Positions 248-63,113 of a DNA stretch of 64,000 bases are shown piece after piece (positions within the stretch are counted from its first letter, which is position 1; each line of letters starts with the position of its first letter). Source of the stretch: Chiloscyllium plagiosum (Eukaryota); contig NC_057752.1 in the NCBI RefSeq assembly GCF_004010195.1, positions 1,536,704 through 1,600,703 of the forward strand, in the 5' to 3' direction. The translations under genes were made by a program, and so were the position numbers. The notes under the pieces are model-generated. The model did not search any database, was not told the origin of the DNA, and saw only the letters and a list, made by a program, of their open reading frames with translations.

Positions 248-740
248 GCTCAGTGGTTAGCACTGCTGCCTCACAGCGCCAGGGCCTCAGGCTGTCTGTG
301 TGGGGTTTGCACATAACCCCCCCACCCCCCACCCGTGTCTGCGTGGGTTTCCTCCCACAGTCCAAAGATGTGCAGGTGAGGGTGGATTGGGCACGCTAAA
401 CTGCCCAGAGGGTTGGGTGCATTCATCAGGGTAGGGGAATGGGGCTGGGTGGATTACTCCTCAGAGGATTGGTATGGACCTTGTGGGCCTGTTTCCACAC
501 TGTGGTCCAGAGTGTGGTGCTGGAAAAGCACAGCCAGTCAGGCAGCATTCGAGGAGCAGGAGAACCAATGTTTGGGCAAAAGCCCTTCATGTGATGAAGG
601 GCTTTTGACCGAAACGTCAACTCTCCTGCTCCTCGGATGCTGCCTGACCTGCTGTGCTTTTCCAGCACCACACTCTCGACTCTAATCTCCAGCATCTGCG
701 GTCCTCACTGTTTCCACACTGTAGGTAATCTAATCTAATA
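246..740 (+). mobile_element. HE1-type tRNA-derived V-SINE, interrupted by a PLE mini-element
   Basis: A-box ggctcagtggttagc, V-domain gtgtctgcgtgggtttcctcccacagtccaaagatgtgcagg, (aatct)n tail. Confidence 0.9.
504..707. mobile_element. Palindromic Penelope-derived mini-element (family 1) with degenerate hammerhead motif
   Basis: Inverted arms centred near 590; TSD ctgtttccacactgt at 489-503 and 708-722; core tgatga-agggcttttgacc-gaaac-gtc. Confidence 0.85.
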
Positions 741-921
741 TTTAACCCTGGTTGAGGAGGTGGTGTTGGGTGAGAGGAGAGATGGAGATGGAGCCCAGAG
801 AGAGGCAGAAAAGGAGCTGGCAGACAAAGGGATTGTAGATAGTAGGTCAGGAAAGAAAAATAACTTAGGTGGAAATGGGGACTGTGAGTGGGTGAAAATG
901 GGTTGGCTGTGCTAAAAGCAA

Positions 922-1204
922 AAGGTTTTGTGATTTACACATGAAAGAAGTGAAACTATCACTGTATTCTAACAGATGAAAGGCTTAACAGACAATCAAT
1001 TTTTCAATGTATAATTTCAGTTACATCACACTGCAAATTTTTGCTATAAATCCTGTGTTACAATTGAGCCCTCCACTATCACCTGATGAAGGAGCATCGC
1101 TCCGAAAGCTAGTGCGCTTCCAATTAAACCTGTTGGACTATAACCTGGTGTTGTGTGATTTTAAACTTTGTACACTCCAGTCCAACACTGGCATCTCCAA
1201 ATCA
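922..1204 (+). mobile_element. Penelope-derived mini-element (family 2) inserted in an older PLE relic
   Basis: TSD taaaagcaa at 913-921 and 1205-1213; homologous copies at 36355-36850 (-) and 41490-42220 (+). Confidence 0.8.
1080..1114 (+). ncRNA. Minimal type I hammerhead ribozyme motif
   Basis: cac-CTGATGA-a-GGAGC(atc)GCTCC-GAAA-GCTA-gtg: intact core, 5-bp stem II, stem I cac/gtg, self-complementary AGCT stem III. Confidence 0.8.
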
Positions 1205-1349
1205 TAAAAGCAACTCATGGCACTGACAGGGCCTGGGGCTATAGGGTAGGTAATAGACACGGAAGGGGTTAGTCAGTCTCAAATGGTTAAACTTGCTGTC
1301 AAGTCCTGAAGGCTGGAAGGTGCCCCAATAGTCCCTGTCATCACCAATC

Positions 1350-1700
1350 TAATTTGTCGTCTTCCTTGGCTTATGGTCAACAATCCCTTTGTGTGCTGAG
1401 CCCTTTTTTCTCTTTCTGTGGGCTCTGTCTCCACCTATCCGTTCACTCCCGCCCCTTCCACAGCCCCCATCATCAGCATCAATATGACCTTTTCACAGCT
1501 GCTTCTAGTTCTGGACTCGACTGGACCTGAAACAATGACTCTCCCCCCCCTGCCCTCCAGTCCCCATCATCAGCATTAATACGCCCTTTTCACAGCTGCT
1601 TCTAGTTCTGGACCTTTTCTCTCTCTGCTGAGCTTCTTCAGCAATTTCTGGTTTTGCTCCTTTCAGATTTCCAGCATCCCTCAGTTCTTTGTTTTATTCT
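1350..1700 (+). mobile_element. Degenerate PLE 3' end/pLTR with an internal ~50-bp duplication
   Basis: Tail ttcagatttccagcatc; ccccatcatcagcat...ttctagttctggac occurs at about 1464 and about 1562. Confidence 0.6.
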
Positions 1701-2844
1701 GCGTCAGCAGGACCTCTGCCCAAGCTGCTGTCTTTCTTAAACAAGCCAAAGTCAGGGAGTATTGCCAGGCTATTCGGCCATGGGGGTAGCACAGCCCAAA
1801 CCTCTCCCTCCCTCACATTCATGATTTACATGTATTATTTAACCCCTGCTGTTTTCTCCTCCACCTCCTTCCTTGGCCTTTAGACACTGAGACAAATCCA
1901 TGTCCGCATTTCCCCTTTCCCTGCTGTTGGTTAACCCCCCGGACCCACCCCCAGCCCTTTCAAATAATCGCACTCCCTTTGTTTTGGCATTTCTTTCAGC
2001 TGCTTTTGACCTTTGTTTTGTAATTGTATTCATGGGACGTAATTCTGCTGGTGCTGGTGCTGGTGCTGTGAGCCATGCTGAAGAAAGAGTGTGGAGTTTA
2101 AGTTCTCTCCAACTGCCTCCCCGTGTTTAATGCTCCCCCTTTTAAACATCTCGATGGATTCAGGAAGTTTCCATACAGATCAGCTGGATTGATTATCTTG
2201 TTCCCTGGATCCTTCCCAGTAGACATTCCCCTGGGCTGTTGTGAGAAGGAGCAGTCAGTCTTTAATTCGCTCTCTTTATAAGACACTGTTCGAAGGGCTA
2301 CTTCAAACATCTGTGCCCAGATAATGTGACTGTCCCGGGGGTGCTGTTGAGAGACACCTCACTCGACAGAGATTTAGTTAAGGAACAGATTGCAGGAACC
2401 ATACGGCAAGGTTTAGGGCTGCAAAGAGCACAGTTTATAGGCCAATGCATTCCATAACCAGTCAGTTTTTCAAGAATTCATTGTAACTCCTGATTGATGC
2501 TTCCAAAACTGATGTGCTTCCCCCTCCAAATTGTTCAAATAAGTCATTTGAAGATCCTTTATCAATACTGTATCAGTCTGAGGAGAAACTAGACTGGGGT
2601 GTTTGCAGTGGTGGCATCATAGGGTGGACTTCACTGTTTATTGCAAGACATTTGGGAGATGATGATGTCAAGCCAGGCTGTTTTCCTTTGCATGGAAGCA
2701 AAGATGTCATGTGACACTCAAAGTTGATTACTAGTGTATCCCTGTCCTGGTTGGCTGTGGAAGCCACTATCTGGATTTGAGCTCTGTTGGAGCACTGTTA
2801 AAACATCTTTAAAAAAATGTTGTTCAGGTATAAACTCTGTGTCA

Positions 2845-3110
2845 AAGTCAGTGTTTATTGCCCAATCCCTAGTTGCCCCTTGACAAGGTGGTGGTGAGCT
2901 GCCTTCTTGAACCACTGCAGTCCATGTGCTGTAGATCAATGTAATTAGGGAGGGTATTCCAGGATTTTGCCCCAGTGACATTGAAGGATATATTTCCGAG
3001 TCAGGATGGTGAGTGGCTTGGAGGGGAGCTTGCAGGAACGGTGTTCCCATGTATCTGCTGCCCTTGTCCTTCTAGATGGAAGTGATTGTGTGTTTGGAAG
3101 GTGTTGTGTC
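2845..3110 (-). mobile_element. LINE family B (CR1/L2 clade) 3' fragment
   Basis: Minus-strand peptide like QHLPN..LPSRRTRAADTWEH; tail gggcaactagggattgggcaataaa. Confidence 0.8.
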
Positions 3111-5344: not shown

Positions 5345-5480
5345 TAAAAACGGAAAGAACTGCAGATGCTGTAAATCAGAAACTAAGACAGAAGTTGCTG
5401 GAAAAGTGCAGCAGGTCTGACAGCAGCTGTGAAGAGAAATCAGGGTTAATGTTTCAGGTCTGGTGACCCTTCCTCTGTTC
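5345..5480 (-). mobile_element. PLE-derived mini-element
   Basis: tgcagatgctgtaaatcaga...gttaatgtttcaggtctggtgacccttc: family tail plus decayed hammerhead. Confidence 0.65.
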
Positions 5481-7640: not shown

Positions 7641-7995
7641 CACTTTAATGATCTCCGATGTCCAGAGATACTTGAAATTGTTGATACTATTCAAGTATGG
7701 TAAATTATGTTTGTCAGAATCTCTTATTGAATTTTAATGAAAATTTAATTTAAGAAAATACTTTTATATAAGGCTTTATGTCAAAGTCCCAAAGTTTTCA
7801 TGTGATTTTTTAATTTTAAAATGCAATTACTATGTTGCCAAATAGTAAAACGTGGCATAATAGTAACAAGATGATTCCCAAGTAATGCGATTGAAGTGAG
7901 AGAGATGTGTCTTTTTGAAGGCATGTACTTCCCTTGTTGTCTTCTGCAACAGGCCTGACGACATTGGGATTTGGTCCAAATGACTAAGACTGATC

Positions 7996-8219
7996 CAAGG
8001 TAGACAGGCAGGAGGCCGGAAGAACACAGCAAGCCAGGCAGCGTCAGGAGGTGGAGAAGTCAATGTTTCAGGTTTAGCCCTTCTTCAGATCCTGAAGAAT
8101 GATTACACCTGAAACATTGACTTCTCCACCTCCTGACACTGCCTGGCTTGCTGTGTTCTTCCGGCCTCCTGCCTGTCTACCTTGGATTCCAGCATCTGCA
8201 GTTTTCTTGTCCCTAAGTG
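7996..8219. mobile_element. Palindromic PLE mini-element with decayed hammerhead motifs
   Basis: Inverted arms centred near 8090 (cttcttcag atc ctgaagaa); TSD agactgatcc at about 7986-7995 and 8220-8229. Confidence 0.8.
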
Positions 8220-9222
8220 AGACTGATCCCAAACCGATTAACCACCTGGAGCTGTATTTAGTTTGTGGAGAGTGATGCATTAAAGTAGATGCAGTGAAAT
8301 TCCGAGGCTAAAATGCTTGGGGCTTGACAGGTTTGCTGCACCATCTTCTGAGCTTTGAGACTGCAGCTAGACAGCCTGCTGCTTGGCCATTATCAGTGCC
8401 ACTGCTGCTCGTCTCTTAGCAAGCGAGAGCGGTGAAGCCAAAATCTCCCTTCTTTCTCCGCCTCTTGGAGAGGTGCCTGCCATTTCATGTGGAGTTTCCC
8501 TCCAACACTGCAGCTGACATTAGGTGAGTGTAGGAGAAAACGGGAAGCAGAATCTGCCATTTACATCTGAGTAACCTCTGTATCACCTATCAATTGACGA
8601 AGTGATGACTATTTTTCCGTGCATTGCTCGTTTATCGGTCCCTCTCTCTTTCATAAAATCCACTGAGACCCACATTTTTAAGTGAGTGTATGTAAAGAAT
8701 GTAAACAGAGCTCTGTAAGTCTGATTAATGTGAATTTTTCTGCTTCATTGTGATTGGATGTATTAAGTGTCATGTCTGTTGACATATTTGTATCTCTTTC
8801 AATGTTATCCCGTTTCACAACCATTCATGTTGCCAGTCTTTTCTTCCTCTTAAGTAGTACTGCTTGGAAATCCGTTTGCATTGAACTTTCATCTGCCATT
8901 ATTCTTCCTACTCGTGAGTCTGGTCACACTTAATTTCGAAGCTGTTCTTGACATAGTATTCCCAGTTTGGCATCGGCTGTGAATTTGAGCTATTTATAAC
9001 TCGCCCCCTTCCCATTTCTGCAACATCCTTCAGCCCTCTGAGAACTCCGTGCTCCTCCAATTTAGGACTCTTGCGCATTCTGTACTCCCCTTGTTCCACT
9101 GTTGGCAGCCACCTCATCACTAAGGGCAGTATCCTGTGGGTGTGGAGCGAGAAAGGAACTCAATTCGATGGGCTGGGTGGCTCTGTCAAAACTTGCAGTT
9201 TCCCACCTTTTCCCAAATGAAG

Positions 9223-9537
9223 GAGCGAATTACCGCAGATGCTGGAATCTGTACCGGAAACTGCCAAAAATGCTGGAGATCACAGTGGGTCAGGTTTCAT
9301 CCATTCCTGAAGAAGGGCTCATGTCCGAAACGTCAATTCTCCTGCTCCTTGGATGCTGCCTGACCTGCTGTGCTTTTCCAGCAACACATTTTCAGCTCCA
9401 TGGAGAGAGAGCAAGTTAACGTTTCAAGTCTAGATGACTTTTCATCAGCTCTGAGTCATCTCGACTCGAAACGTTAGCTTGCTCTCTCTCCATGGATGCT
9501 GCCTGACCCACTGTGATCTCCAGCATTTTTTTGTTTA
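9223..9537. mobile_element. Family-3 palindromic PLE mini-element with a nested family-1 element (about 9303-9397)
   Basis: Outer arms centred near 9448 (gttaacgtttcaagtctagatgact...gactcgaaacgttagc); inner ctgaaga-agggctcatgtcc-gaaac-gtc at 9307-9334; imperfect outer TSD ccca(a/g)tgaag. Confidence 0.75.
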
Positions 9538-10429: not shown

Positions 10430-10880
10430 CAATGGCCTGGTGGTATTATCACTAGCTGAAAATGTGTTGCTGGAAAAGCGCAGCAGGTCAGGCAGCATCC
10501 AAGGAGCAGGAGAATCGATGTTTCGGGCATGAGCCCTTCTTCAGGAAGGATAATACTCATCCTTCTTCAGGATGAGTATTATCAGTAGCCTATTCATCCA
10601 CAGACCCAGCAACAATATAGGAACCCCAGTTCAGATCCATCTATGGTAGACGGTGCAATTTAGATTCAACTAAAAACCTGGACTTCAGATTCTAAGAGTA
10701 ACCAATGTTAGGAACAAGCCCATCTGGCTCACGAATCTCTTCAGGGAAGGAAATCTGCTGCTCTTACCTGGTCTGGTCTCCATATGACTCTAGACCCACA
10801 GCAATGTGGTTGACTCTTAACTGCCATTGGTGGCTTAGCCAGCAATACCCACATCCCATGAATGAATAATGAAAAAAATG
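10430..10880 (+). mobile_element. tRNA-like SINE sharing its 3' tail with LINE family B; interrupted by a PLE mini-element (10457-10575)
   Basis: Body ggaaggaaatctgc...gactctagacccacagcaatgtggttgactcttaactgcc; tail cccacatcccatgaatgaataa. Confidence 0.7.
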
Positions 10881-12940: not shown

Positions 12941-12942
12941 TT

Positions 12943-20250: not shown

Positions 20251-20261
20251 TAGATGTGGGG

Positions 20262-20580
20262 CATCTAAGCAGAAGCAGAGTTAATGGTTTAGTCCAGTAT
20301 GACTTCTTCAGAACTCTGAAAAAGAGTCGTATCGGACTCTAAACGTTAACTCTGTTTCTCTCTCCACAGATGCTGCCCAACCTGCTGAGTTTCCTTCAGT
20401 GTCACTGGGTCAAAATCCTGGAATTCCCTCCCTAAGGGCATTGTGGGTCTACCTATAGCACATGGACTGCAGTAGTTCAAGAAGGCAGCTCACCCCCACC
20501 TTCTCAAGGGGCAACTAGGGATGGGAGCAATAAATCCTGGTCTAACGAGCAATGCCCACATCCCATGAGCAAATAAAGAA
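20262..20580. mobile_element. Palindromic PLE mini-element (20262-20392) abutting a LINE family B 3' end (+)
   Basis: agagttaa...cttcttcaga / ctctgaaaaagagtcgtatcggactctaaacgttaactctg, then ctgggtcaaaatcctggaattcc...gcaataaa. Confidence 0.65.
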
Positions 20581-23305: not shown

Positions 23306-23419
23306 AGGGCAAGAGTGAGGACTGCAGCTGCTGAAGCTCAGAGTCTGGATTAGAGTGGTGCTGGAAAAACACAGCATCCGAGGAGCAGGAAAATCGGGCA
23401 AAAGCCCTTCATCAGGATC
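23306..23419 (-). mobile_element. PLE mini-element (family 1), GAAAC box deleted
   Basis: TSD aggggttgat at 23296-23305 and 23420-23429; minus strand ctgatga-agggcttttgccc. Confidence 0.75.
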
Positions 23420-25314: not shown

Positions 25315-25715
25315 GGAACACTTCAACCCCAAGGCATCAATGTGGACTTCACCAGTTTCCTCATTTCCCCTCCCCCCACCTTACCTCAGTTCCAGCCTTC
25401 CAGCTCAGCACAGCCCTCATGACCTGTCCTACCTGCCTATCTCCCTTCCCACCTATCCACTCCACCCTCCCCTCTGACCTATCACCTCCATCCCCAACCC
25501 CATTCACCTATTGTACTCTTTGCTTCCTTCTCCCCAGCCCCCCTCCCCCCATTTATCTCTCCACCCTTCAGGCTCTCTGCCTCTATTCCTGATGAAGGAC
25601 GTATGCCCGAAATGTTGATTTTCCTGCTCCTCGGATGCTGCCTGACCTACTGTGCTTTTCCAGCACCACTCTAATCTAAACTCTGGTTCCCAGCATCTGC
25701 AGTCCTCACTTTTGC
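25315..25715 (+). mobile_element. Penelope-like element 3' end with pLTR and hammerhead motif
   Basis: ORF end (caaccccaaggcatcaatgtggacttcacc), pyrimidine-rich UTR, ctgatga-aggacgtatgccc-gaaat-gtt at 25589. Confidence 0.8.
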
Positions 25716-35484: not shown

Positions 35485-36145
35485 CACACAGAGAACTAAA
35501 TCTGCTGGAGATCACAATGGGTCAGACAGTATCCATGGAGAGAGAGTGAGCTAACACTGCGAGTCTAGATGACCCTTCATCAGAGCTGACAGGAAGTGTG
35601 AAGGGGGCAGCATTTATGCAATAGTTTCGGGGGTGGTGGGAGTGGAGTGTTGGGGAGAAAGGATGGTTCAGATTAAATGATTGGAATGTGAGAATGGCAG
35701 AACATTGGTGTGTCTAACTGCCAGATTGGAAAGGACAGACAGTCCCACTGGGGTGGGAGAGGGAAGAAAGGACGCGGTGACAGAGAATGTAACACGGAAA
35801 GTTAAAAAAAAGGAAGGAATGGGAGTGGGTTCACAATCAATATTAAGTCCAGGAGGCCGTAAAGTGCCCGGTCTGAACATGAGATGTTGTTCCTCCAGCT
35901 TACGCTGTGATTCACTGGAGCACTGCTGCATGCTGGGAACAGACAAGTGGGCGTGTGAGCAGGACACTGTGTTAAAATAACCAGTTACTGGAAGGTTGGG
36001 GTCATGCTTGCACACAGACTGGAGGTATTCTGCAAAGCGGTGACCCAATCTGCATTTGGTTCCTCCAATGTAGAGTAGGCCACATTAGATGCAGCGAATA
36101 CAGTTCACCAGATTGGAGGAGGTACAGGTGAAATGCTGCTTCCCC
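35485..36145 (-). pseudogene. Penelope-like element: GIY-YIG endonuclease remnant plus family-3 pLTR
   Basis: HFTCTSSNLVNCIRC..CGLLYIGET...LGHRFAEYL...PVTGYFN...RKLEEQHLMFRPGTLRPPGLNI; pLTR with ctgatga-agggtcatctagactc (GAAAC box mutated). Confidence 0.88.
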
Positions 36146-36354: not shown

Positions 36355-36850
36355 GATTTGGAGATGCCGGTGTTGGACTGGGGTGTACAAAGTTAAAAGT
36401 CACACAACACCAGGTTAGAGTCCTACAGGTTTAATTGGAAGCACCAGCTTTCAGGTGGTTGTGGAGGACACAATTGTAAGGCACAGAATTTATAGCAAAC
36501 GTATACAGTGTGATGTAACTGAAATTATACATTGAAAAATACCTGGATTGTTTGTTGAGTCTTTCATCTGTTAGAATGACCATGATAGTTTCACTTCTTT
36601 CATATGTAAATCACAAAACCTTTTTTTAAAAGTTACATTCTCAGGTTAACTGTAACAATTGGTCTCAGCCAGATAATGTGTTGAGGGTGTTAGCCCCCTG
36701 TGTGCTGCTGTCTGTGCCATAATGTTTAGACTGACTCTAATATAAACAAAATGAGTTTCAGAGTTAACAAGTACAAATTCACCCCACGTTTGCAGAGTTG
36801 CTGAGTTACATTGTACTTTGCTCAAAAACTGCATGAATCCATGTCAGACT
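36355..36850 (-). mobile_element. PLE family-2 element, hammerhead core deleted
   Basis: Reverse-complement match to 922-1204; core collapsed to cac-ctgaaagc-tggtg. Confidence 0.8.
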
Positions 36851-36855
36851 CTGTG

Positions 36856-38656: not shown

Positions 38657-38751
38657 TGACGAAGGGCTTTTGCCCAAATTGTCGATTTTCCTGCTCTTCG
38701 AATGCTGCCTGACCTGCTGTGCTTTTGCAGCACCACTCTAATCTGAGCTTT
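38657..38751 (+). mobile_element. PLE mini-element (family 1)
   Basis: 18-bp TSD tgcctgtctggcttctct at 38639-38656 and 38752-38769; begins at a decayed hammerhead core. Confidence 0.8.
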
Positions 38752-41216: not shown

Positions 41217-41268
41217 GTGTTAAACCTCTTATCTTTTAGAATGACCATGTTGGTTTCATGTTAGAATG

Positions 41269-41490
41269 GAGGAGAAAGTGAGGTCTGCAGATGCTGGAGA
41301 TCAGAGCTGAAAATGTGTTGCTGGAAAAGCGCAGCAGGTCAGGCAGCATCCAGGGAACAGGAGAATCGACGTTTCGGGCATAAGCCCTTCTTCAGGATTC
41401 CTGAAGAAGGGCTTATGCCCGAAACATCGATTCTCCTGTTCCCTGGATGCTGCCTGACCTGCTGCGCTTTTCCAGCAACACATTTTCAGC
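41269..41490. mobile_element. Young palindromic PLE mini-element (family 1)
   Basis: 92-bp arms 41306-41397 / 41399-41490 with one mismatch; TSD ttcatgttagaatg at 41255-41268 and 41491-41504. Confidence 0.9.
41363..41400 (-). ncRNA. Minimal type I hammerhead ribozyme motif, intact
   Basis: gaatc-CTGAAGA-a-GGGC(ttat)GCCC-GAAAC-GTC-gattc: 5-bp stem I, 4-bp stem II, ACGT palindrome for stem III. Confidence 0.8.
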
Positions 41491-41637
41491 TTCATGTTAG
41501 AATGACCATGGTCATTCGAAACGATGACAGACATAACAAACAATCCAGGTCTTTTTCAATATGTAATTTCAGTTACATCACACTGTAAAATTTTACTATA
41601 AATTCTGTGCCTTACGATTTTATTCTCCATAACCACT

Positions 41638-42122
41638 TAGAGTCATAGAGATGTACAGCATGGAAACAGACCCTTCGGTCTAACCTGTCCATGCCAACCA
41701 GATATCCCAACCCATTCTAGTCCCATCTGCCAGCACCCGGTCCATACCCCTCCAAACCCTTCCTATTCATATACCCATCCAAATGCCTCTTAAATGTTGC
41801 AATTGTACCAGCCTCCACCACTTCCTCTGGCAGCTCATTCCATACACGTACCACCCTCTGCGTGAAAAAGTTGCCCCTTAGGTCTCTTTTATATCTTACC
41901 CCTCTCACCCTAAACCTATGCCCTCTAGTTCTGGACTCCCCGACCCCAGGGAAAAGACTTTGTCTATTTACCCCATCCATGCCCCTCATAATTTTGTAAA
42001 CCTCTATAAGGTCACCCCTCAGCCTCTGACGCTCCAGGGAAAACAGCCCCAGCCTGTTCAGCCTCTCCCTGTAGCTCAAATCCCCCAACCCTGGCAACAT
42101 CCTTGTGAATCTTTTCTGAACC
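41638..42122 (-). mobile_element. Young CR1/HER1 3' end inserted in a PLE family-2 element
   Basis: Uninterrupted RVQKRFTRMLPGL...GYGPGAGRWD and ctctatga tail. Confidence 0.95.
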
Positions 42123-43029
42123 CTAGTGCGCCCAAATAAACCTGTTGGACTATAACCTGGTGTTGTGTGGTTTTTAATTTTGCACACCCCAGTCCAACAC
42201 CGGCATCTCCAAATCATAATTTGACATCAGTTGGTTATACAGTGGAGAGCACCAGAGCTCCCCTTGTCTTGGGACTGAGAATTCTGTCTCTTCTCTGCAT
42301 CAAGCACATTTTCTGGTCTAGGGCACTGAGTCCAATTGTTATCAGTCTCTCACTCTGGTTGGTATCGGGTCAGTGTGCATCTAATAAATTCAATGTACCT
42401 CACAAATCAAGTACCTATCAAGTGACTGCAGTGGAGTTAATGCGGTGTTGCTTACAGATTCAACCCTTTGAAGTGCTGACTTTGATCTTAATTTTTGTCC
42501 AAAATCTTTTGAACCTGGAAATAATCCTGCTTTTGGTACAATGGCACCATTTTTTGTAGAGAGGTTCTTCATGTAAAATTGAGTCACCCAGCCTTGGAAC
42601 AAGTTGAAAGAACATGCTGTTCTGATCAAAGTGACGGCTTTCTCCTTTTCTCAAAGCCTGGCTCGGATCTGAATAGTTTGTGTTCATTCAGCCTTAGCAC
42701 GTTTTGGTGCCTGAAGGAAACCAATATCATGTCCCCAAGGTAATCATTAACCTGCTACCTTGAGACAAAAGGTAACCCAACAATATTTAATCTCGAAAAA
42801 GCATGCTGGCAAGCTGCATTGATTGCAAGTGGAATACCACTTGCACAGTGTTGCTGGAACCATTCAGAAGTTGTGCTGTGTGACCATTTCATTGCCTAGC
42901 CTGTGCCTCATGTATCTGTTCCCTCACATTTGGGGAAACAATCCGATGTGAGCTGTCTGCCCGCTGATACCTTCATGTGTGTGAATGTGTGCAGATTTGT
43001 TTTGAAGGGCGAGGGTATTGCTGGTGTGA

Positions 43030-43830
43030 GTGACATTGGTGGCTCAGTTCGTTAGCATGACTGCCTCACAACACCAGAGATCTCGGTTCAATTCCACTCC
43101 TTGGGTAACTACCTGGGTGGAGTTTGCATGTTTTCCCAGTGTGTCTGTGTGGGTTTCCGCTGGGTGCTCCGGTTTTCTCCCAGAGTCCAAAGATGTGCAG
43201 GTCAGGTGTATTGGCCATGCTAAATCACCCATAGTAGATAGGCAGGAGGCTGGAAGAGCAGAGCAAGCCAGACAGCATCAGAAAGTGGAGAGGACAACAT
43301 TTCAGGAAAGGTTTCCTGAAGAAGGATTGTACCCAAAACGTTGACTTCTCCACCTCCTGATGCTGCCTGGCTTGCTGTGTTTTCCCAGCCTCCTGCCTGT
43401 CCCTCCTGATGCTGCCTGGCTTGCTGTGTTCCCCTAGCCTCCTGCCTGTCCGTCCTGATGCTTCCTGGCTTGCTATGTTCCCCCAGCCTCCTGCCTGTCC
43501 CTCCTGATGCTGCCTGGCTTGCTGTGTTCACCCAGCCTCCTGCCTGTCCCTCCTGATGCTGCCTGGCTTGCTGTGTTTACCCAGCCTCCTGCCTGTCCCT
43601 CCTGATGCTGCCTGGCTTGCTGTGTTCACCCAGCCTCCTGCCTGTCTACTTTGGATTCCAGCATCTGCAGTTTCTTTTGTCTCAAATTACCCATACAGTC
43701 CAGGGATGTATAGGTTAGGTGGGTTAGCCATGGGAAATACAGGGGTAGGGGAGGTGAGATGTCCTTCAGAGGGTCGGTGTGGACTTGATGGGCTGAATGG
43801 CCCGTTTCCACACTGTAGGCATTCTATGAT
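43030..43830 (+). mobile_element. HE1 SINE containing a palindromic PLE mini-element (about 43234-43683)
   Basis: TSD aaat(c/t)acccata flanks the insert; insert centre ggtttcctgaagaagg. Confidence 0.82.
43353..43647 (+). repeat. 49-bp tandem repeat, 6 copies, inside the PLE mini-element
   Basis: Unit cctcctgatgctgcctggcttgctgtgttcacccagcctcctgcctgtc. Confidence 0.92.
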
Positions 43831-44279
43831 TACCTCTGCCTTGTTGCTCTGAAAGGCAGGTAGGCTTTCTCCTTGCGCACTAGTCGAGTCACAACGGGGA
43901 GGCCTTTTAATTCCAAAAGGGCATTGAAGAGCTGACCACGTTGGTGTGGGGCTGGAATTGCACAGAAAGCACGTGACTAATAATGGTAGGGTTTCTTTTC
44001 CAAATGGATGTTAGTGAGAACTTTACGCCAATCTGACCGCGTCATGGTCACTTTTGCTGATGCCAGCTTTTTAATTACCGAAACAGAGTTCCAACTACCA
44101 TAGTGGGATTTGAACTCAAACTTACTGATTCACGAAAATAAATAAAGGAGCAGTGCTGAAGAAGGAACACTGGACTTGAAACGTTAACTCTGCTTTCTCA
44201 CCGGAGATGCTGCCAGACCTGCTGAGTTTCTCTGGCAATGTCTGTTTTGGTTTCTGAGTTACTAGTCCTGTAGCATCGA

Positions 44280-44910
44280 ATTGTAGAAAATAGGAGCAGG
44301 AGGAGGCCATTCAGCCCTTCGAGCCTGCACCGCCATTCAATCAGATCATCGCTGCTCATCTACCTTCGTCCCCTGTTCTTGCCTTCTCCCCATATCTTTT
44401 GATCCCTTTAGCCCCAGGAACTATATCTAACTCCTTCTTGAAAACATTCAATGTTTTGGCCTCAAACGCTTTCTGTGACAGAGAATTCCACAGGCTCCCC
44501 ACTCTCTGGGTGAAGACATTTCTCCTCATCTCAGTCCGAAATGACCTGCTCTGTATCCTTGAACTGTGACCCCCTGGTTCTGAACTCTCTGCTCATCAGA
44601 AACATCCTTCCTGCATTTACTCTGTCTAGTCCTGTTAGAATTTTATAGGTTTCTATGAGATTCCACCCGCTCCCCCCCCTTGGTGAAGCCATTTCTCCCC
44701 ATCTCAGTCCGAAATGACCTGCTCTGTATCCTTGAACTGTGACCCCCTGGTTCTGAACTCTGCTCATCAGAAACATCCTTCCTGCATTTACTCTGTCTAG
44801 TCCTGTTAGAATTTTATAGGTTTCTATGAGATTCCACCCGCTCCCCCCCCCCAATCCTTCTAACCGCCAGTGAATAAAGTGCTAATTAATCCAGCCTCTC
44901 TTCATACATT
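44280..44910 (-). mobile_element. CR1 3' end with a ~172-bp tandem duplication
   Basis: LIETYKILTGLDRVNAGRMF appears twice (about 44507-44679 and 44682-44852). Confidence 0.88.
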
Positions 44911-44913
44911 AGT

Positions 44914-44988
44914 TGAAAAATGTGGTGCTGGAAAAACACAGCAGAACAGGCAGCATCCGAGGAGCAGGAGAATCGACATAGGCCCTTT
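44914..44988 (-). mobile_element. Truncated PLE mini-element
   Basis: 13-bp TSD ttcatacattagt at 44901-44913 and 44989-45001. Confidence 0.78.
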
Positions 44989-45814
44989 TTCATACATTAG
45001 TCCAGGAATTAGTCTGGGAAGCATAGCTATATGATACTCAGAGGCCATCCTTGCATGTTCTGCAGCAGGACTTGTCGTACAGTTTCCAAGTCCCACCAGC
45101 TCATCCTCGCCTGGTTTCCCTTGAGCTCAACCACAGCAGATCTGCATTGCCTTGCGTCTGTGCATCTCCATATCAACAGGAAACCAGTAAGACCTGCAAA
45201 TGATGCATACGGGTCCACCTTGTGTTGTATACCAATGCTCCAATGTGCCCAGTTTGTTCATTTCCATGTATTACTGTTTGTTCGCCAAAGCAGCCCCATG
45301 CTGAGCAGAGGGTTTCATTGTGTACAGTATGTAACAAGATGCTAAGCCCATCCATAACGGAGTGCTGTACACCAGCCCGACAGAAGAAATCTTGCCCCTG
45401 TCCCCACTTTCCCCGTATACGATATTTTGAGCATTTCCTTGGTTTCTTTAATGAGGTTAAATCCTTTTTCAAGAAACAAATAGAAGATTTGTGTTTCAGT
45501 GATGCAGACATTAGTAACTGGAGACCTCATCAAGCAAGTTGGCTTCTGAGACATACTGAGCTATCAGGTGACGAGTAATAACGGAAGATAAGGTTGGAAA
45601 CTTGACATCCAAGGCAAACGTTTGGACAGGTATTTTGCTGATTCCAACCATTACATAATAGAGCTATTCATTCATTGTCAGCGGCTGAATGAAACAGATA
45701 CTCTCGCAGCCCGCCGAAATGGTGGGTCAGTGAGGAATGTGACAGTACTGAGTGGGAAAATCTGACAACCTTAAGTAAACGGCGTTGAAAATAAGCAAGA
45801 TGAGAGAAGGACAG

Positions 45815-48319: not shown

Positions 48320-48800
48320 TTGTTAACACTCTTGTCTCTGAGTCAGGAGCTCTTCGGTTTGACTTCAGGTCCTAGCCCAAAGACATGAGTGTAAGATCTA
48401 GCCTGACACTTTGGGTCATCACAGACAGAGGCTGCACTGTCAGAGCGTCTTTAGGACACAATGTTAAATCAAGGCTGCGTCCCCTCCCATCTGGTGAATG
48501 TATGCTTTTTGAATATGCACAAGTGGGAGTTCTCCCTGGTTGACCCGGTCAACAAAACAGCTTACCCAGTCATTCTCACACTGGCCTGTTCTGCACTGGA
48601 ATCGTTGGCTCTGTTTCTCTCTCCATGGATGCTGCTTGACCTGCTGAGTTTCTCCAGCAGCTTCTGTTCCTTATTTCAGATCTCTGGCATCAGCAATCAT
48701 TTGCTTTCGGTCTCACACTGGTGTTGCAAGGGATCTTGCTTTGCTGCTGCAGTGATCACATCTCGGGAAGTATTTCATTGGCAGTGGCATGAAATGCTCG
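48320..48800 (+). mobile_element. Deu-domain SINE relic with a PLE mini-element insert (48584-48710)
   Basis: Head ctctgagtcagg...tctagcctgacac; TSD tctcacactgg on both sides of the insert. Confidence 0.65.
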
Positions 48801-48899: not shown

Positions 48900-50172
48900 G
48901 TGCAACTCAGTGGTTAACACTGTTGCCTCACAGCACCAGGGACCCTGGTTCGATTCCAGCCTCAGATGACTGTCTGTGTAGAGGTTGCACATTCTCCCTG
49001 TGTCTGCGTGGGTATCCTCCCACAGTGTGCAGGCGAGGAGGATTAGACTCGAGAGTGTGGTGCTCAAAAGGAGCAGCAGGTCAGGCAGCATCTGAGGAGA
49101 ATCGACGTTTCGGGCAAGAGCCCTTCATTAGGAATGAGGCTTGTGAGCCGAGGGGGTGGCGAGATAAATGGGAGCAGGGGGTGGGGCTGGGGAGAAGGTA
49201 GCTGAGTGCAATAGGGAGATGGAGTTGGGGAGTAATGGTGATAGGGTGGAGCAGATAGGTGGGAAGGAAGATGGATAGCTTATGAGAGAGGTGCTGAGTT
49301 GGAGGGGTGACACGGTGGCTCAGTGGTTAGCACTGCTGCCTCACAGCTCCAGGGTCCCAGGTTCGATTCCAACCTTGGGTGACTGACTGTGTGGAGTTTG
49401 CACATTCTCCCCGTGCCTGTGTGGGTTTCCTCCGGGTGCTCCGGTTTCCTCTCACAGTCCAAAGATGTGCAGGTTAGGTGAATTGGCCATGCTAAATTGC
49501 CCGTACTGTTCGGTGCATCATTCAGAGGGAAATGGGTCTGGGGTGGGTTACCCTTTGGAGGGTCGGTGTGGACTTGTTGGGCCGAAGGGCCTGTTTCCAC
49601 ACTGTAGGGAATCTACTGTAATCAAAAGTGGGATAAGGTGTGGGGAGGGCAAATGAGGAAACTGGTGAAATCCACATTGATCCTGTCTGGTTGGAGGGTC
49701 CTGAGGCATAAGGTGGTTAGGGTCTGGTGATGGAGGAGGCCCAGGACCTGCATGTCCTTGGTGGAGTGGGAGGGGGGTTGAAATGTTTGGCCCCAGGGCA
49801 GTGGGGTTGGTTGGTGTGGGTGTCCCAGAGATTTTCTCTGAAGCGCTCTGCGAGAAGGCATCCAGTCTCCCCAATGTAGAGGAGACCGCAACAGATACAG
49901 TAAACGACGTGTGGATGTGGAAGACTTCTTGGGGCCTTGGAGGAAGGTGAGGGGGGTGGTGTGGGTGTAGGTTTTGCAATTCCTGTGGGGTTCTGACCTT
50001 GTTGCGGTTGGAGGAATAGGGTTCGAGGGTGGAGGGGCAGGAAGTGGAGGAGATGCGCTATGAGAAATGCAGGGAGAGGGTAGAGGGGTGGGTCTGGATG
50101 GGATGCTCTTTGGAGGGTCACCGTGGTCTCAGTAGGCTGAATGGCCTGCTTCCACACAGTAGGGGTTCTGTG
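48900..50172. mobile_element. Nest: HE1 SINE (+) split by a PLE (-, about 49030-50050, with GIY-YIG remnant) that contains a second HE1 (+, 49305-49617)
   Basis: Minus-strand VVYCICCGLLYIGETGCLLAERFRENL...AKHFN; family-1 pLTR at 49030-49135; HE1 halves at 48900-49025 and 50050-50172. Confidence 0.82.
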
Positions 50173-57264: not shown

Positions 57265-58100
57265 CTTGGAGTATTGTGTGCAGTTTTCGTTCTTTACCTG
57301 AGGAAGGATGTTCTGGCGAGGGAGGGAGGGCAGCGAAGGGTTTGCCAGACTGAATGGCAGGATGAACATATGAAGAGAGACCAATGGAGTTTTGAAGAAT
57401 GAGGGGGGATCTTATAGAAACCTATAAAATTCTAACAGGACTAGACAGGGTAAACACAGGAAGGATGTTTAAAGAAAACATAGAAAATTAGAACAGGAGT
57501 AGGCCATTCAGCCCTTCATTCCTGTTCCCTCATTCAATATGATCATGGCTGATCATTCAACTGTTCCCACTTTCTCCCCAAACCCTTTAGCACGGGTTTT
57601 AACTTATTTAACTTATTCTAGGAAACATTCAATGTTTCGGCCTCAATCGCTTAGCCTGTGACCCCCTGGTCATCAGGAACATCCTTCCTGCGTTGACTCT
57701 GTTTCATTCCTGTTCGAATTTTATAGGTTTCTATGAAATCTCCCTCATTCTTTAAGACTCCACTGAATATAGTTCAAACCGATCCAGCCTCTCTTCATAC
57801 GTCAGTCCAGCCATCCTCTGGAATCAGTCTGGTAAACCTTCACTGCCCTCCCTCCATCGCCCAGAACGTCCCTCTCCTCAGATACAGAGACCAAAACTGC
57901 ACGGAATACTCCAAAATAAAACTAAGAACTGTGGATACTGGGGAACTGAAGCAAAGAAAACCAAAAATGTCTGGAGAGCCTCTGCAGGCTCAGAACTAGT
58001 TCCGAGGAAGGGTCAGTGGCCTCAAGGCTAACTCTGTTCCTCTCGCCACGGATGCTGACAGGCCCGCTGAGTTTCTCCAGCAATTTCTGTTTGTGTTTCC
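57265..58100. mobile_element. CR1 fragments (+ 57265-57470; - 57478-57915) followed by a decayed palindromic PLE mini-element
   Basis: LEYCVQF and LIETYKILTGLDRVN motifs; ccgaggaagggtcagtggcctc core relic. Confidence 0.72.
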
Positions 58101-60182: not shown

Positions 60183-60311
60183 GACTTTGTCTAGCTCAGA
60201 AGTGGGGCTGGTTGCCGAGGAGTGCACAATGTTTGGCACCTTTCACAATTCCTCTAAAGGCATCAAAGGGTATAGGGGAGAAAGTGAGAACAGGGGACTG
60301 AGTTGGATGAT

Positions 60312-60477
60312 TAGTGTGGTGCTGGAAAAGCACTGCAGGCCAGGCAGCATCCGAGGAGCAGGAAAATCGATGTTTCGGGCAAAAACCCTTCATCGGATGC
60401 TGCCTGACCTGCTGTGCTTTTCCAGCACCACTCTAAGCGAGACTCTGATCTCCAGCATCTGCAGGCCTCACTTCCAC
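60312..60477. mobile_element. Palindromic PLE mini-element inside a CR1 3' UTR
   Basis: TSD ctg(a/g)gttggatgat at 60298-60311 and 60478-60491. Confidence 0.78.
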
Positions 60478-60832
60478 CTGGGTTGGATGATCAGCCATGA
60501 TCAGATTGATTGGGAGCAGGCTCGAAGGGCTGAGTGGCCTCCTCCTGTTTTCGAGGTTTCTAAATCCATTTTGAGTTCCTTTCGTTTCTCCAGTGAGATG
60601 GAGATCCATAAGAAATGATCATCCCTTTGTGTTTCATAGCTTCACTGTCCAACCTGCTGACACAGATAACTGCCAATTTCAGCCACTTGTATATTGCTGC
60701 AGCTATGTAACAAAGAAACTATTTCAGGCCCTGCAGTTCTGTGCTGAGCTGAGCTAGCTCACCTTACCTGTTTGTATTTATTCGGGGTTGTTTTTGGATG
60801 TGACCTTTTCAGTTTGGAGCTGCTGAAAGGTG

Positions 60833-60950
60833 GTGTGTGTGTGTGTGTCTGTGTGTGTGTGTGTGTGTCTGTCTGTGTGTGTGTGTGAGAGAGAGAGAGA
60901 GTGTGTCTGTGTGTGTGTCTGTCTGTGTGAGAGAGTGTATGTGTGTGTGT
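60833..60950. repeat. Compound (GT)n/(GA)n microsatellite
   Basis: Visible directly in the sequence. Confidence 0.97.
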
Positions 60951-61709
60951 AGGCTCAAATCAGGTTGGTTTCAAGGATGCAGGTTCATCCCATGTTAGTT
61001 TCCCACAAAGAATGTGCACCCACATTGCACAGGACACATAATCCAGCCCGTCTCACAGAGGGGAGAAATAGGCAGGGCTCCATGACGTTTCAGACAAGCT
61101 GACGATCACCAGAATAGAATCTGATTGAGGAAGGAGCAGAATCGAAAGATCCTCAGCCTGGCAGCTTCTTTTGGATATAGGCAGTCATTATAAAAGGCAT
61201 GCCTCTGTGCATCGACACTGTCACTGTTGGACAGATAGGCAGGGTTATATGAAGGAGGATTGTGTGGAGTGCAAACACTGATAGAAACCAATTCGGCCAA
61301 ATAGCTGGTATCTTTGTTGTCAATTCAGTACCATTTCCTGGCTGCCATGTTGGTTTTGGGCCCTGTTGTCTTACACATTTAGCAGCCTACAAGAGAACCG
61401 AATCTTTTGATCGCCCCTGAAATAATGTTTAATATTGTTTTGATGCTTTCCTCAGCACATGTGGAGATAATTGATTATACATTTGCAGCTAAAGAGCATG
61501 GTAAAAGCACATGACTCTCGACTTTGGCCGTCCCCAGAGCACTGAGAACTTGATTTCCTGCTGTCTGTTTCACCCACCATCTTGAAATCTATCACCATTC
61601 TTTCACCGTCACTGGGCGATAATCTGGAAAGGCTCCTCCCTAACAGCACTGTGGGTGTGACTGCAGAGGTTCAAGAAGGCAGCTCACCACCACCCTCTCC
61701 ACAGCAGGT

Positions 61710-62155
61710 CGAACAAAGGACAGCACAGCACAGGGACAGGCCCTTCGGCCCTCCAAGCCTGCACTGACACATTTTGCCCTTCCATACTAAAACTGTCTTC
61801 ACTTACAGGATCCGTATCCCTCTGTTCCCTTCCTATTCATGTATTCGTGCGGGTGAATGCTGCTATTGTGTCTGCGTCCACCCCCTCCTCTGGCAGCGCG
61901 TTCCAGGCACTGTGAAAAACCTGCCTCACACATCTCTTTTAAATCCCCCTCCCCCTCCCCCACACCTTGAACCTGTGTCCCCTAGTAATAGACCCCTCCA
62001 CCCTGGGGACAAAGCCTCATACTTCCCACTCTATCCACGCCTTTCACAATCTTATGAACGTCTATCGGGTCGCCCCTCAACCTCCTGCGTTCCAGTGAAA
62101 ACAAACCCAGTCTATCCAACCTTTCTTCATCGCTAAAATCCCCCCCATACCAGGC
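61710..62155 (-). mobile_element. CR1 LINE 3' fragment
   Basis: Reverse complement of the ERRRLRGDL/VWN-type motifs and 3' UTR. Confidence 0.78.
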
Positions 62156-62747
62156 AATAAATGCTGGGAAATGAGAGTTGCCCTGATTCTCATAGTCTCA
62201 CTCGCGACAATCGGCCCCCCCCAATGAAGGTGAAGAACCATCATTCACAATGATGCATTCATCACGATCCAGATCTGCCGTATATCCATGCCCTTCGGGT
62301 GTTCCTTTCTAGTATTGACAGATCCTCGCATTTCAACCTGGGCCCTTCTATCATCTTCAATTCACAATTCGTGCACTCAGCCAGTTGACTGGGCGCCTCC
62401 CCACATCTTGGATCACTGCAGTCTGACGAGTTCTCACACGGAGAATGTTGAGCGGGCTATTTGCCTTCCCACTTTAAAACAAATTGCTGCTTGGTATTCA
62501 AACCATTTCAACAATGACAACACACCATGAAATTGCATTATGACAATGAGTACAGTTAATCCCGTGAAAAGCTGGAGCAGAACAGCCGATTCTGGTTTGA
62601 GTGGATTGTGGTATTTGCTGGTGCTTTTGACCTTAGTAGAGGGCAAGGATATCCTGATTCACTGCATTCAGATTATTACTGCCACCGTGTGCTTCATCCT
62701 GCTTTCCTGGTGTTCAGCTTTGTGTGTTCTTCTGTGTTGTCCTTTTG

Positions 62748-63111
62748 GGAAGAAAAAAGTGAGGGCTGCAGATGCTGGAGATCAGAGCTGAAAATGTGTT
62801 GCTGGAAAAGCGCAGCAGGTCAGGCAGCATCCAAGGAGCAGGAGAATCGACGTTTCGGGCATAAACCCTTCCTGAAAAAGGGCTTATGCCCGAAACGTCG
62901 ATTCTCCTGTTCCTTGGATGCTGCCTGACCTGCTGTGCTTTTCCAGCAACACATTTTTAGTACATGTATGTGGAAATCAGCTAGGAGAAAGTGAGGACCG
63001 CAGATGCTGGAGATCAGAGCTGAAAATGTGTTGCTGGAAAAGCGCAGCAGGTCAGGCAGCATCCAAGGAGCAGGAGAATCGACGTTTCGGGCTTGAGCCC
63101 TTCTTCAGGAA
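62748..63111. mobile_element. Tripartite PLE mini-element (-/+/-) with hammerhead motifs
   Basis: 17-bp TSD tctgtgttgtccttttg at 62731-62747 and 63112-63128. Confidence 0.88.
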
Positions 63112-63113
63112 TC
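63076..63113 (-). ncRNA. Minimal type I hammerhead ribozyme motif, intact core
   Basis: gattc-CTGAAGA-a-GGGC(tcaa)GCCC-GAAAC-GTC-gattc. Confidence 0.75.

What the first reader, a model, noticed from the sequence alone, without database searches (positions are those of the whole stretch)
504..63113. Dense population of non-autonomous, hammerhead-bearing Penelope mini-elements from at least three families
Seen: about 20 elements of 75-450 bp with no coding capacity, most carrying an intact or decayed CTGANGA / stem II / GAAA / NUH motif. Stem II differs between families but stays paired (GGGC/GCCC, GGAGC/GCTCC, G(A/G)GTC/GACTC), while the family-1 loop varies freely (ttat, tttt, tcat, tcaa, tctt). 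Stem III is reduced to a self-complementary tetramer (ACGT or AGCT). At least ten copies have their own 9-18 bp TSD (e.g. 489/708, 913/1205, 23296/23420, 38639/38752, 41255/41491, 44901/44989, 62731/63112). Established: PLE pLTRs carry minimal type I hammerheads thought to act as dimers. Inference: these are independently mobilised ribozyme-carrying SINE-like or retrozyme-like parasites of shark PLEs, at roughly one per 3 kb here. I cannot tell whether these families are already catalogued.
Basis: partly seen in the sequence, partly recalled or inferred. Interest (0 to 1): 0.8.

Follow-up and report, generated by a model that had tools for sequence, protein, structure and literature searches.

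The report
Stubs of shark Penelope retrotransposons
The roughly 25 small hammerhead-bearing insertions in this window are cut-down end pieces of ordinary protein-coding Penelope-like jumping genes, a known pattern, and their shared starting point likely marks where the element's messenger RNA begins.

Summary
All seven quoted target-site duplications are exact. Hammerhead boxes with a paired stem II occur 8 times against 0.04 in shuffles. About 25 insertion loci (about 34 arms) of four sequence families lie in the 64 kb.

The pieces are Penelope-derived and carry the minimal hammerhead of Cervera and de la Pena 2014. They are not separate SINE-like or retrozyme-like families. In the genome, all four families run upstream into a longer shared sequence. 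For three of them that sequence follows a GIY-YIG endonuclease reading frame, and for family 1 a reverse transcriptase as well.

Single arms, head-to-head palindromes, a 35-40 nt tail on one arm only, and 9-18 bp duplications are the published Penelope insertion signature.

One point goes beyond a random truncation series. In every family, 12 to 21 of 27-30 sampled copies start 4-5 nt before the ribozyme core, 31-33 nt after a TATA-like box. I read these as run-off copies of the mRNA leader (inferred).

The scan has noted this pattern before, in this genome too. No cleavage-site ends were seen.

The parts
504..707 (.). Family 1 (older) head-to-head insertion. The antisense arm is about 504-588. 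The sense arm with tail is 592-707. TSD at 489-503 / 708-722. Both ribozyme cores are decayed.
   Evidence: (I5)
921..1204 (+). Family 2 copy, 5'-truncated. It carries an intact minimal hammerhead at 1083-1111 (CTGATGA-A-GGAGC-ATC-GCTCC-GAAA-GCTA). TSD at 913-921 / 1205-1213.
5360..5475 (-). Family 3-like arm with tail-like end. The core is decayed.
7997..8219 (.). Family 4 head-to-head insertion. The left arm (7997-8088) has no tail. The right arm (8092-8219) has the tail. TSD at 7987-7996 / 8220-8229.
   Evidence: (I2)
9266..9530 (.). Family 3 head-to-head insertion. Its left arm (9266-9304 plus 9397-9439) is split by a nested family 1 single arm (9302-9398, +). There is an intact family 3 hammerhead at 9448-9422 on the minus strand.
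   Evidence: (I9, I14)
10454..10550 (-). Family 1 single arm without tail, starting at the core's 5' edge. A direct repeat lies at 10443 / 10576.
20273..20393 (.). Family 3 head-to-head insertion, decayed (GAAA has become TAAA).
23306..23419 (-). Family 1 single arm with tail and an internal deletion. TSD at 23296-23305 / 23420-23429.
25315..25712 (+). Older family 1-type copy that runs upstream of the ribozyme to the end of the endonuclease frame (parent positions 486-869, 72% identity). It has the tail.
35503..35589 (-). Family 3 arm. Stem II GGGTC/GACTC is paired. The GAAA box is decayed.
36355..36623 (-). Second family 2 copy (82% identical to 921-1204).
38657..38751 (+). Family 1 single arm starting 2 nt before the core. 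TSD at 38639-38656 / 38752-38769.
41269..41490 (.). Young family 1 head-to-head insertion (arms 99% complementary, 1 nt between them). The minus-strand arm carries the tail and an intact hammerhead (41395-41368). TSD at 41255-41268 / 41491-41504.
   Evidence: (I1)
41514..42216 (+). Two pieces of a family 2 copy (41514-41619 and 42115-42216).
43229..43681 (.). Family 4 head-to-head insertion. The sense arm's 3' part is repeated as six 49-bp units (43353-43646) before the tail.
   Evidence: (I6-I13)
44151..44260 (+). Family 3-like single arm with a decayed stem II.
44914..44988 (-). Family 1 arm starting inside the core, with a deletion. TSD at 44901-44913 / 44989-45001.
48591..48668 (+). Family 3-like arm fragment.
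49056..49978 (-). Older long PLE copy. It has an endonuclease-coding remnant (49978-49629, parent positions 147-559) followed by the ribozyme arm (49139-49056).
57998..58099 (+). Family 3-like arm, decayed.
60312..60481 (.). Family 1 asymmetric inverted insertion. A full antisense arm is joined to a sense arm that starts 45 nt into the unit and carries the tail. TSD at 60302-60311 / 60482-60491.
   Evidence: (I8)
62748..63111 (.). Family 1 three-arm composite under one TSD (62731-62747 / 63112-63128). It consists of an arm with tail (63111-62983, -), an inverted arm (62870-62960) and an arm with tail (62871-62756, -).
   Evidence: (I3, I4)

Best explanation
These are terminal stubs of autonomous Penelope-like retrotransposons (reverse transcriptase plus GIY-YIG endonuclease), inserted singly or head to head with target-site duplications. 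They were most likely made when the element's enzyme started copying at its internal start sites on the leader of the element's own mRNA and ran off at the cap site.

Shown here:
- Every family's arm is colinear with the end of a longer element.
- In families 1, 2 and 4 that longer element follows an endonuclease reading frame.
- Copies form 5'-truncation series.
- One arm of a pair carries a 35-40 nt tail and the other does not.
- The commonest 5' end lies 4-5 nt before the hammerhead core and 31-33 nt after a T/A-rich box.

Inferred:
- That boundary is the transcription start.
- The two alternative 3' ends are the two adjacent reverse-transcription start sites reported for the Anolis element PAc.
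- The palindromes arise by priming on both cut strands or by snap-back of the cDNA.
- The stubs are dead on arrival. They lack the promoter box and, by analogy with PAc, the enzyme-binding RNA downstream of the start site.
- The hammerhead is simply part of the copied leader. Nothing here shows that it cuts.
For: (1) Parent element, family 1. Locus L002 holds a 1,047-bp palindrome plus tail under a 15-bp TSD. Its arm runs from the end of an open frame through about 250 nt to the ribozyme. L062 has RVT_1 at 33.3 bits (cut-off 29.6), and GIY-YIG at 22.4 bits (cut-off 22.6) in the same orientation upstream.

(2) Parent elements, families 2 and 4. The family 2 upstream frame in L077 aligns to that endonuclease (31% identity over 70 aa, E 1e-7). 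The family 4 frame in L105 also aligns (49% over 67 aa, E 1e-19; Pfam GIY-YIG 15.7 bits).

(3) Truncation series.

(4) Published PLE signature. Craig et al. 2021 (PMC8557442, passages read) describe high 5'-truncation, an inverted 5'-truncated copy next to the element, and a 30-40 bp tail at one end. All three are seen here.

(5) Recurrent 5' end within a few nt of the core:
- family 1: 14 of 27 readable loci, and 12 arms in the window starting at parent positions 743-754 out of 21 blastn rows against the parent's end;
- family 2: about 19 of 30;
- family 3: about 21 of 30;
- family 4: 12 of 29.

(6) Read depth on a family 1 copy. Raw RNA reads fall from 928 to 128 across the boundary. Contig depth falls 5.8-fold. 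Loose ends pile at 3-4 nt before the core: 35 and 81 reads, and 44 and 55 contigs (coarser).

(7) T/A box. Its first base lies 31 nt before the boundary A in young family 1 and family 4 (TTTATC). It lies 33 nt before in old family 1 and in family 2 (TATAAA). The spacer between box and boundary is not conserved. In family 3, an ATAAAT box sits about 30 nt before the boundary.

(8) PAc (Frangieh et al. 2024, PMC11167929, main text read). The enzyme cuts and extends both strands. Reverse transcription starts at two adjacent internal sites 111-118 nt into the ORF. The tail is the stretch between those sites. The hammerhead sits at the ORF start. Cleavage favours ATT.

(9) ATT target here. All 30 of 30 young family 1 copies are followed by CCATT. 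All 17 of the 17 TSDs found begin with CCATT, CATT or ATT.

(10) Variants such as TTTCCAGC, CTGTTCC and CCTTGG occur in both long and stub copies.
Against: - The transcription start is not measured. The only raw RNA run is poly(A) single-cell data, and the tool reported no place where many molecules begin or end.
- 92% of the laid reads run on into unlike flanks, so they are read-through transcripts, not element transcripts.
- The depth step is partly confounded. The arm is more conserved between subfamilies than the upstream part, and reads were accepted at 90-92% likeness.
- The locus samples are the best-scoring 30 per search, not random samples.
- Symmetric palindromes with 1-3 nt between the arms fit snap-back better than two independent cDNAs, and I cannot tell these apart.
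- The full-length coding part is withheld (reads N in L066 and L067). So the position of the ORF start relative to the ribozyme and tail could not be checked.
- The GIY-YIG Pfam scores are just under the cut-off. Pfam found nothing in the family 2 frame or in window 49629-49978.
- The ATT rule does not hold for the older copies in the window; their TSDs start with GTTT, TGCC, ATCA, ACTA and CAAA.
Confidence: 0.65

Rival explanations
1. The short elements are independent non-autonomous families (SINE-like or retrozyme-like). They are transcribed and mobilised in their own right by PLE enzymes.
For: There is a very sharp recurrent 5' boundary, and stubs far outnumber long copies. Young family 1 copies are 97-100% identical. 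Published work derives animal non-LTR retrozymes from PLE pLTRs (bioRxiv 10.64898/2026.07.22.740005, abstract and Results read).
Against: The stubs have no sequence of their own. Each is colinear with the last 95-133 nt of a coding element. They share variants with long copies. They exclude the T/A box upstream of the boundary. No direct tandem of hammerhead units occurs in the window; the only tandem array (43353-43646) has no ribozyme in its unit. No Pol III head is present, and Rfam's weak tRNA hits at 28686 and 53820 lie outside the elements. CpG decay in the stem III tetramer is common.
Confidence: 0.1
2. The recurrent 5' end is not an RNA end. It is a place where the reverse transcriptase stalls or switches template because of the folded hammerhead or stem II.
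For: The boundary abuts a structured motif in all four families. Some inverted arms of family 2 end inside the stem II loop (L140, L144, L157), which shows that switching at structure does happen.
Against: The enzyme travels 3' to 5' and has already copied stem II and the whole core when it stops. A stall would be expected before the hairpin, not after it. The boundary keeps a fixed distance of 31-33 nt from a T/A box in families whose spacers differ. The stub RNA is not unusually stable (z-score 0.03).
Confidence: 0.15
3. Hammerhead self-cleavage, with or without circularisation, makes the template, so that copy ends reflect ribozyme processing.
For: Cervera and de la Pena 2014 proposed this role (PMC4209133, Results and Discussion read). 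An earlier scan note on another genome reports junctions at the cut site (e1-9820663).
Against: None of the 116 loci examined by eye (27 + 30 + 30 + 29) has its 5' end at the cleavage site (after GTC, CTA or GTT). No loose-end pile at that site is among those listed (most rows were not shown). Stubs contain the whole core upstream of the cut site, which a cleaved 3' product could not supply. PAc inserts unprocessed RNA in vitro.
Confidence: 0.05
4. They are fold-back DNA transposons (MITEs) that carry the motif by chance.
For: They have a palindromic shape. Rfam gives sub-threshold microRNA-precursor matches.
Against: TSDs vary from 9 to 18 bp. The two ends are unequal, with a tail on one arm only. 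Single-arm and long coding forms of the same sequence exist.
Confidence: 0.01

Closest known systems
Insertion units of endonuclease-positive Penelope-like elements (Penelope/Poseidon/Neptune type), as described by Craig et al. 2021 (PMC8557442) and Frangieh et al. 2024 (PMC11167929)
   Same: An RT plus C-terminal GIY-YIG frame lies upstream. Copies are strongly 5'-truncated. An inverted 5'-truncated copy abuts the element. A 30-40 nt tail is present at one end only. TSDs vary in length. The hammerhead lies in the terminal repeat. The young family has an ATT-containing target.
   Different: Here the shortest form (leader only, 95-133 nt, or about 220 nt as a palindrome) is the most common product. 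I did not find that stated in the papers I read. Clade assignment (Poseidon versus Neptune) was not done.
Minimal type I hammerheads of PLEs (Cervera and de la Pena 2014, PMC4209133)
   Same: The CUGANGA and GAAA boxes are present. There is one unpaired nucleotide before stem II. The closing pair is mostly G10.1-C11.1. The 15.2-16.2 positions form a palindrome (ACGU or AGCU) with no loop 3. Helix I is short. Most copies are single or on opposite strands 100-700 bp apart and are attributed to truncated PLEs.
   Different: Stem II is 4-5 bp here, against 7-8 bp in Schistosoma. Activity was not tested.
Animal non-LTR retrozymes (Cervera and de la Pena 2020, PMC7229834; Li, Clavereau and Pollet 2026, bioRxiv 10.64898/2026.07.22.740005)
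   Same: They are short, non-coding, carry a type I hammerhead and are related to PLE terminal repeats.
   Different: Retrozymes are direct tandem repeats of about 170-400 bp with canonical hammerheads, and they are expressed as circular RNA. The elements here are single or inverted and have minimal hammerheads, and none is a direct tandem of ribozyme units.

Membership tests
Endonuclease-positive Penelope-like element (insertion products) | [quoted passage not shown] | tested here: met
   Family 1: RVT_1 at 33.3 bits (cut-off 29.6) and GIY-YIG at 22.4 bits (cut-off 22.6, so just under) in L062. The family 2 and family 4 frames align to that endonuclease. The full ORF was not seen because it is withheld as N. 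Family 3 was not tested for an ORF.
Endonuclease-positive Penelope-like element (insertion products) | Variable 5'-truncation with a common 3' end | tested here: met
Endonuclease-positive Penelope-like element (insertion products) | An inverted 5'-truncated copy adjoining the element | tested here: met
   Window pairs I1-I6, I8 and I9. Genome: 12 of 27 family 1 loci, and many family 2 loci.
Endonuclease-positive Penelope-like element (insertion products) | An optional 30-40 nt tail at one end only | tested here: met
   At 41269-41490, 7997-8219 and 504-707, one arm is about 35-40 nt longer than the other. Family 2 inverted copies stop about 31-38 nt short of the 3' end.
Minimal PLE hammerhead (Cervera and de la Pena 2014) | [quoted passage not shown] | tested here: met
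   Seven distinct stem II helices were seen, with changes on both sides at all four stem positions. These were selected for pairing, so this is not an unbiased covariation test. One helix (AAGTC/GACTT) has A-U at 10.1-11.1.
Minimal PLE hammerhead (Cervera and de la Pena 2014) | Self-cleavage after the NUH triplet, as a dimer | not testable with these tools
There is no excess of read or copy ends at the site.
Rfam hammerhead families | A score at or above the family's gathering threshold | tested here: not met
   No match at gathering thresholds, and no hammerhead family up to E = 10, in the whole window.
Animal non-LTR retrozyme | Direct tandem repeats, each unit carrying a hammerhead | tested here: not met
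   Ribozyme arms in the window are single or inverted. The one tandem array has a 49-bp unit without a ribozyme.
Animal non-LTR retrozyme | Expression as circular RNA | not testable with these tools
   Only poly(A) single-cell reads and contigs were available.
SINE | A Pol III promoter head derived from tRNA, 7SL or 5S | tested here: not met
   No such Rfam match lies inside any element. The elements start at the hammerhead.
MITE | Equal terminal inverted repeats and a short TSD of fixed length | tested here: not met
   The arms are unequal because of the tail, and TSDs range from 9 to 18 bp.

The most novel reading that the evidence does not exclude
The stubs are a genome-wide fossil record of two RNA landmarks of shark Penelope elements. 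One is the cap site, 4-5 nt before the hammerhead and 31-33 nt after a TATA-like box. The other is the pair of internal reverse-transcription start sites. They show that the dominant outcome of Penelope retrotransposition is an abortive copy of the element's own mRNA leader. Full-length copies would then arise only when the enzyme engages the same signal on a read-through transcript of a downstream repeat.
Probability: 0.5. Interest if true: 0.45.

Novelty: new member of a known kind. Interest (0 to 1): 0.25.

Why it matters
For annotation, these roughly 25 loci should be labelled as truncated or inverted Penelope-like insertions. They should not be labelled as new SINEs, retrozymes, MITEs or microRNA precursors. 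Rfam's weak mir-196, mir-680 and mir-722 matches in this window are all such hairpins.

For mechanism, the stubs offer a cheap way to read the promoter, the RNA start and the reverse-transcription start sites of many Penelope families from genome sequence alone. That holds only if the shared 5' end is the cap site. They would also extend the single in-vitro model (Anolis PAc) to cartilaginous fish.

They give no support for ribozyme cleavage in vivo.

Tried and rejected
- **Rfam.** Both the gathering and E-value modes gave no hammerhead match. The best rows are microRNA-precursor models matching the palindromes.
- **MAFFT alignment.** An alignment of 14 ribozyme regions (A1) misplaced the family 2 rows by one column. 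I therefore did not run the count of structure pairs or build a covariance model. Stem II pairs were counted by position in scripts instead.
- **Fold of the 132-nt stub RNA.** The z-score was 0.03, so there is no stability signal.
- **Search for full-length copies.** The three places with open frames of 1,458-1,471 aa owe that length to withheld stretches read as N. This was seen in L066 and L067; the third place was not fetched. The ORF start, and the junction between tail and ORF, therefore remain unseen.
- **Three copies taken 7 kb upstream.** L051-L053 were all truncated at 640-800 nt.
- **RNA evidence.** No RNA holder is listed for the stretch. Run X20 laid no reads. Run X19 gave depth and loose ends, but no place where many molecules begin or end. 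Single-cell poly(A) data cannot show a cap site.
- **Solved structures.** A phmmer search with the RT piece found nothing relevant.
- **Pfam.** Nothing was found in the family 2 frame or in window 49629-49978.
- **Repeat libraries.** Dfam and Repbase could not be consulted, so I cannot say whether these families are catalogued.
- **Literature.** Searches found no paper stating that leader-only copies ending at the transcription start are the main PLE product. Supplements were not read.

Full report
**Setting.** The window is G000:C43:1536704-1600703 of a 3.56-Gb assembly. The organism's name was not given to me.

**Observation.** The sequence features are real.
- The box pattern CTGANGA-N6-30-GAAA occurs 15 times against 5.97 expected.
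- With 10-24 nt between the boxes there are 14 matches. Eight have a stem II of at least 4 bp, against 0.04 in 50 shuffles.
- All seven quoted target-site duplications (TSDs) are exact at the quoted coordinates, and I found three more.
- blastn with one arm finds 23 hits in about 17 places. Three other families add about eight places.
- The total is about 25 loci and about 34 arms. Only five arms are fully intact by box, stem II and tetramer.
- Rfam sees no hammerhead at all.

**Anatomy.** I define one "arm", read 5' to 3', as follows:
- 2-5 nt;
- CTGANGA;
- one unpaired base;
- a 4-5 bp stem II with a 3-5 nt loop;
- GAAA;
- a self-complementary tetramer (ACGT or AGCT);
- the cleavage base;
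- about 60 nt that include a conserved GATGCTGCC;
- then either the end of the arm, or a further 35-40 nt "tail" containing CCAGCATCTGCAG.

Arms occur in several forms:
- singly (10454-10550, 38657-38751, 23306-23419);
- as near-perfect head-to-head palindromes in which only one arm has the tail (41269-41490, 7997-8219, 504-707);
- as asymmetric inverted joins (60312-60481);
- as a three-arm composite under one TSD (62748-63111);
- nested in one another (9266-9530).

**What they belong to.**

*Family 1.* The 30 best genomic matches are 97-100% identical, so the family is young. Of 27 readable loci:
- 11 continue upstream into one shared sequence;
- 12 are palindromes (10 turn at the core's edge, 2 further upstream);
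- 4 are single arms that start at the core's edge.

The upstream starts differ: 1218, 1288, 1327-1330, 1392, 1418, 1472, 1481 and 1494 in one locus's coordinates. L002 is a 1,047-bp palindrome plus tail under a 15-bp TSD. Its arm begins inside an open frame. That frame carries GIY-YIG (22.4 bits against a cut-off of 22.6). Further upstream, in L062, it carries RVT_1 (33.3 bits against 29.6). A search with the endonuclease piece gave 168,161 first-look candidates, which is not a copy number. The copies with apparently intact frames are withheld as N over 3.6-3.85 kb.

*Family 2.* The starts of 29 genomic copies are scattered between 976 and 1501. The upstream frame in L077 aligns to the family 1 endonuclease (E 1e-7).

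*Family 4.* 17 of 29 loci continue into a shared upstream sequence. One upstream frame is 49% identical to the family 1 endonuclease.

*Family 3.* 9 of 30 loci continue into a shared upstream sequence. I did not look for its ORF.

*Longer copies in the window.* The window itself holds two older long copies with coding remnants: 25315-25712 and 49056-49978.

**Comparison with the literature.**
- Cervera and de la Pena 2014 (read) define the minimal PLE hammerhead by exactly the four extra features seen here. They state that most motifs are single, truncated PLE remnants, with some pairs on opposite strands 100-700 bp apart.
- Craig et al. 2021 (passages) describe the 5'-truncation, the adjoining inverted truncated copy and the one-sided 30-40 bp tail.
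- Frangieh et al. 2024 (main text) studied the Anolis element PAc. The enzyme cuts and extends both strands. It starts reverse transcription at two adjacent internal sites 111-118 nt into the ORF, and the tail is the stretch between them. The hammerhead sits at the ORF start. Ribozyme mutants still insert. ATT is the favoured cut motif.
- Retrozymes are direct tandem arrays. None is present here.

**The recurrent boundary.** The copies are not only a random truncation series. The sense arm starts within a few nucleotides of the core in:
- 14 of 27 loci (family 1);
- about 19 of 30 (family 2);
- about 21 of 30 (family 3);
- 12 of 29 (family 4).

(. These counts were made by eye on the printed flanks, helped by a script for family 3.)

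In the window, 12 family 1 arms start at parent positions 743-754, where the core begins at 749.

Public reads were laid on a long family 1 copy:
- Depth falls from 928 to 128 across the boundary in a raw RNA run.
- Depth falls 5.8-fold in contigs of another run.
- Loose ends are concentrated 3-4 nt before the core.
- No pile appears at the cleavage site among the rows shown.

This step is partly confounded by the better conservation of the arm.

The boundary base is an A. It lies 4 nt (families 1, 3, 4) or 5 nt (family 2) before the core. A T/A-rich box has its first base 31 or 33 nt before that A: TTTATC in families 1 and 4, and TATAAA in family 2. The spacers are unrelated. Family 3 has ATAAAT about 30 nt before. 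That this spacing is typical of a TATA box and its start site is my own knowledge, not a tool result.

**Mechanism (inferred).** The terminal repeat carries a TATA-type promoter. The mRNA starts just before the hammerhead. The enzyme binds the leader and the start of the ORF, and starts copying at one of two internal sites.
- On the mRNA's own 5' leader, this gives a run-off cDNA of 95 or 133 nt.
- On a read-through transcript, the same signal in a downstream repeat gives long copies.
- Priming on both cut strands, or snap-back of the cDNA, gives the palindromes.

The stubs lack the promoter box. By analogy with PAc, they also lack the binding RNA downstream of the start site, so they should be dead on arrival. 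Frequent CpG decay of the tetramer fits that.

In the young family 1, all 30 copies are followed by CCATT, and all 17 TSDs found begin with CCATT, CATT or ATT. This parallels PAc. Older copies in the window do not show it.

**Ribozyme.** Between families, stem II differs at all four positions yet stays paired. Seven helices were seen, but they were selected for pairing. Helix I is only 2-6 bp. In a head-to-head transcript, one arm is antisense and the hairpin would bury the motif. Nothing here shows cleavage.

**Verdict.** This is a correct observation of a known kind of thing: stubs of autonomous Penelope-like elements. The scan has reported the same pattern many times (433 notes hold the search words, in at least 36 genomes). 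That includes this genome, with the same reading of the shared start point. The leader run-off reading is the only part that may go beyond the papers I read, and it remains untested.

Noticed in passing
window 43353-43646: Six tandem 49-bp units (94% matches) lie inside a family 4 insertion. The unit is the arm's 3' part, just before the tail, and contains no ribozyme. This might reflect repeated re-initiation or slippage at the reverse-transcription start region.
   Followed up: partly
window 10551-10590: Next to the family 1 single arm lies a 29-nt piece. It holds a short inverted copy of the arm's first bases and an inverted copy of the target duplication. It looks like a small snap-back product.
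   Followed up: no
window 8026-8154, 41344-41452, 62826-62923: Rfam's best sub-threshold rows (mir-196 at 44.1 bits, mir-680 at 40.6, mir-722 at 34.0) are all Penelope palindromes. Such hairpins could be mistaken for microRNA precursors.
   Followed up: partly
L132 (G000:C10:68695597-68698720): An endonuclease C-terminal coding stretch is joined directly to the family 2 arm at the usual boundary. This is either a chimeric copy or one with an internal deletion.
   Followed up: no
L001-L030 (young family 1 copies): All 30 copies are followed by CCATT. The TSDs (12-17 bp in 16 loci and 9 bp in one) begin with CCATT, CATT or ATT. This suggests a strong target or priming preference in the young family only.
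   Followed up: partly
L006 2087-2572 (minus strand) and L077 179-523: Fragments of another retroelement's reverse transcriptase and its conserved C-terminal region (LINE-like by eye) lie beside the Penelope copies. Some Penelope stubs may sit inside them.
   Followed up: no
window 41268-41399 (minus strand RNA): The predicted fold pairs the conserved GGAUGCUG after the ribozyme with CAGCAUCU in the tail, enclosing the tail-less end. The pairing is invariant across families 1, 3 and 4, so there is no covariation evidence for it.
   Followed up: partly
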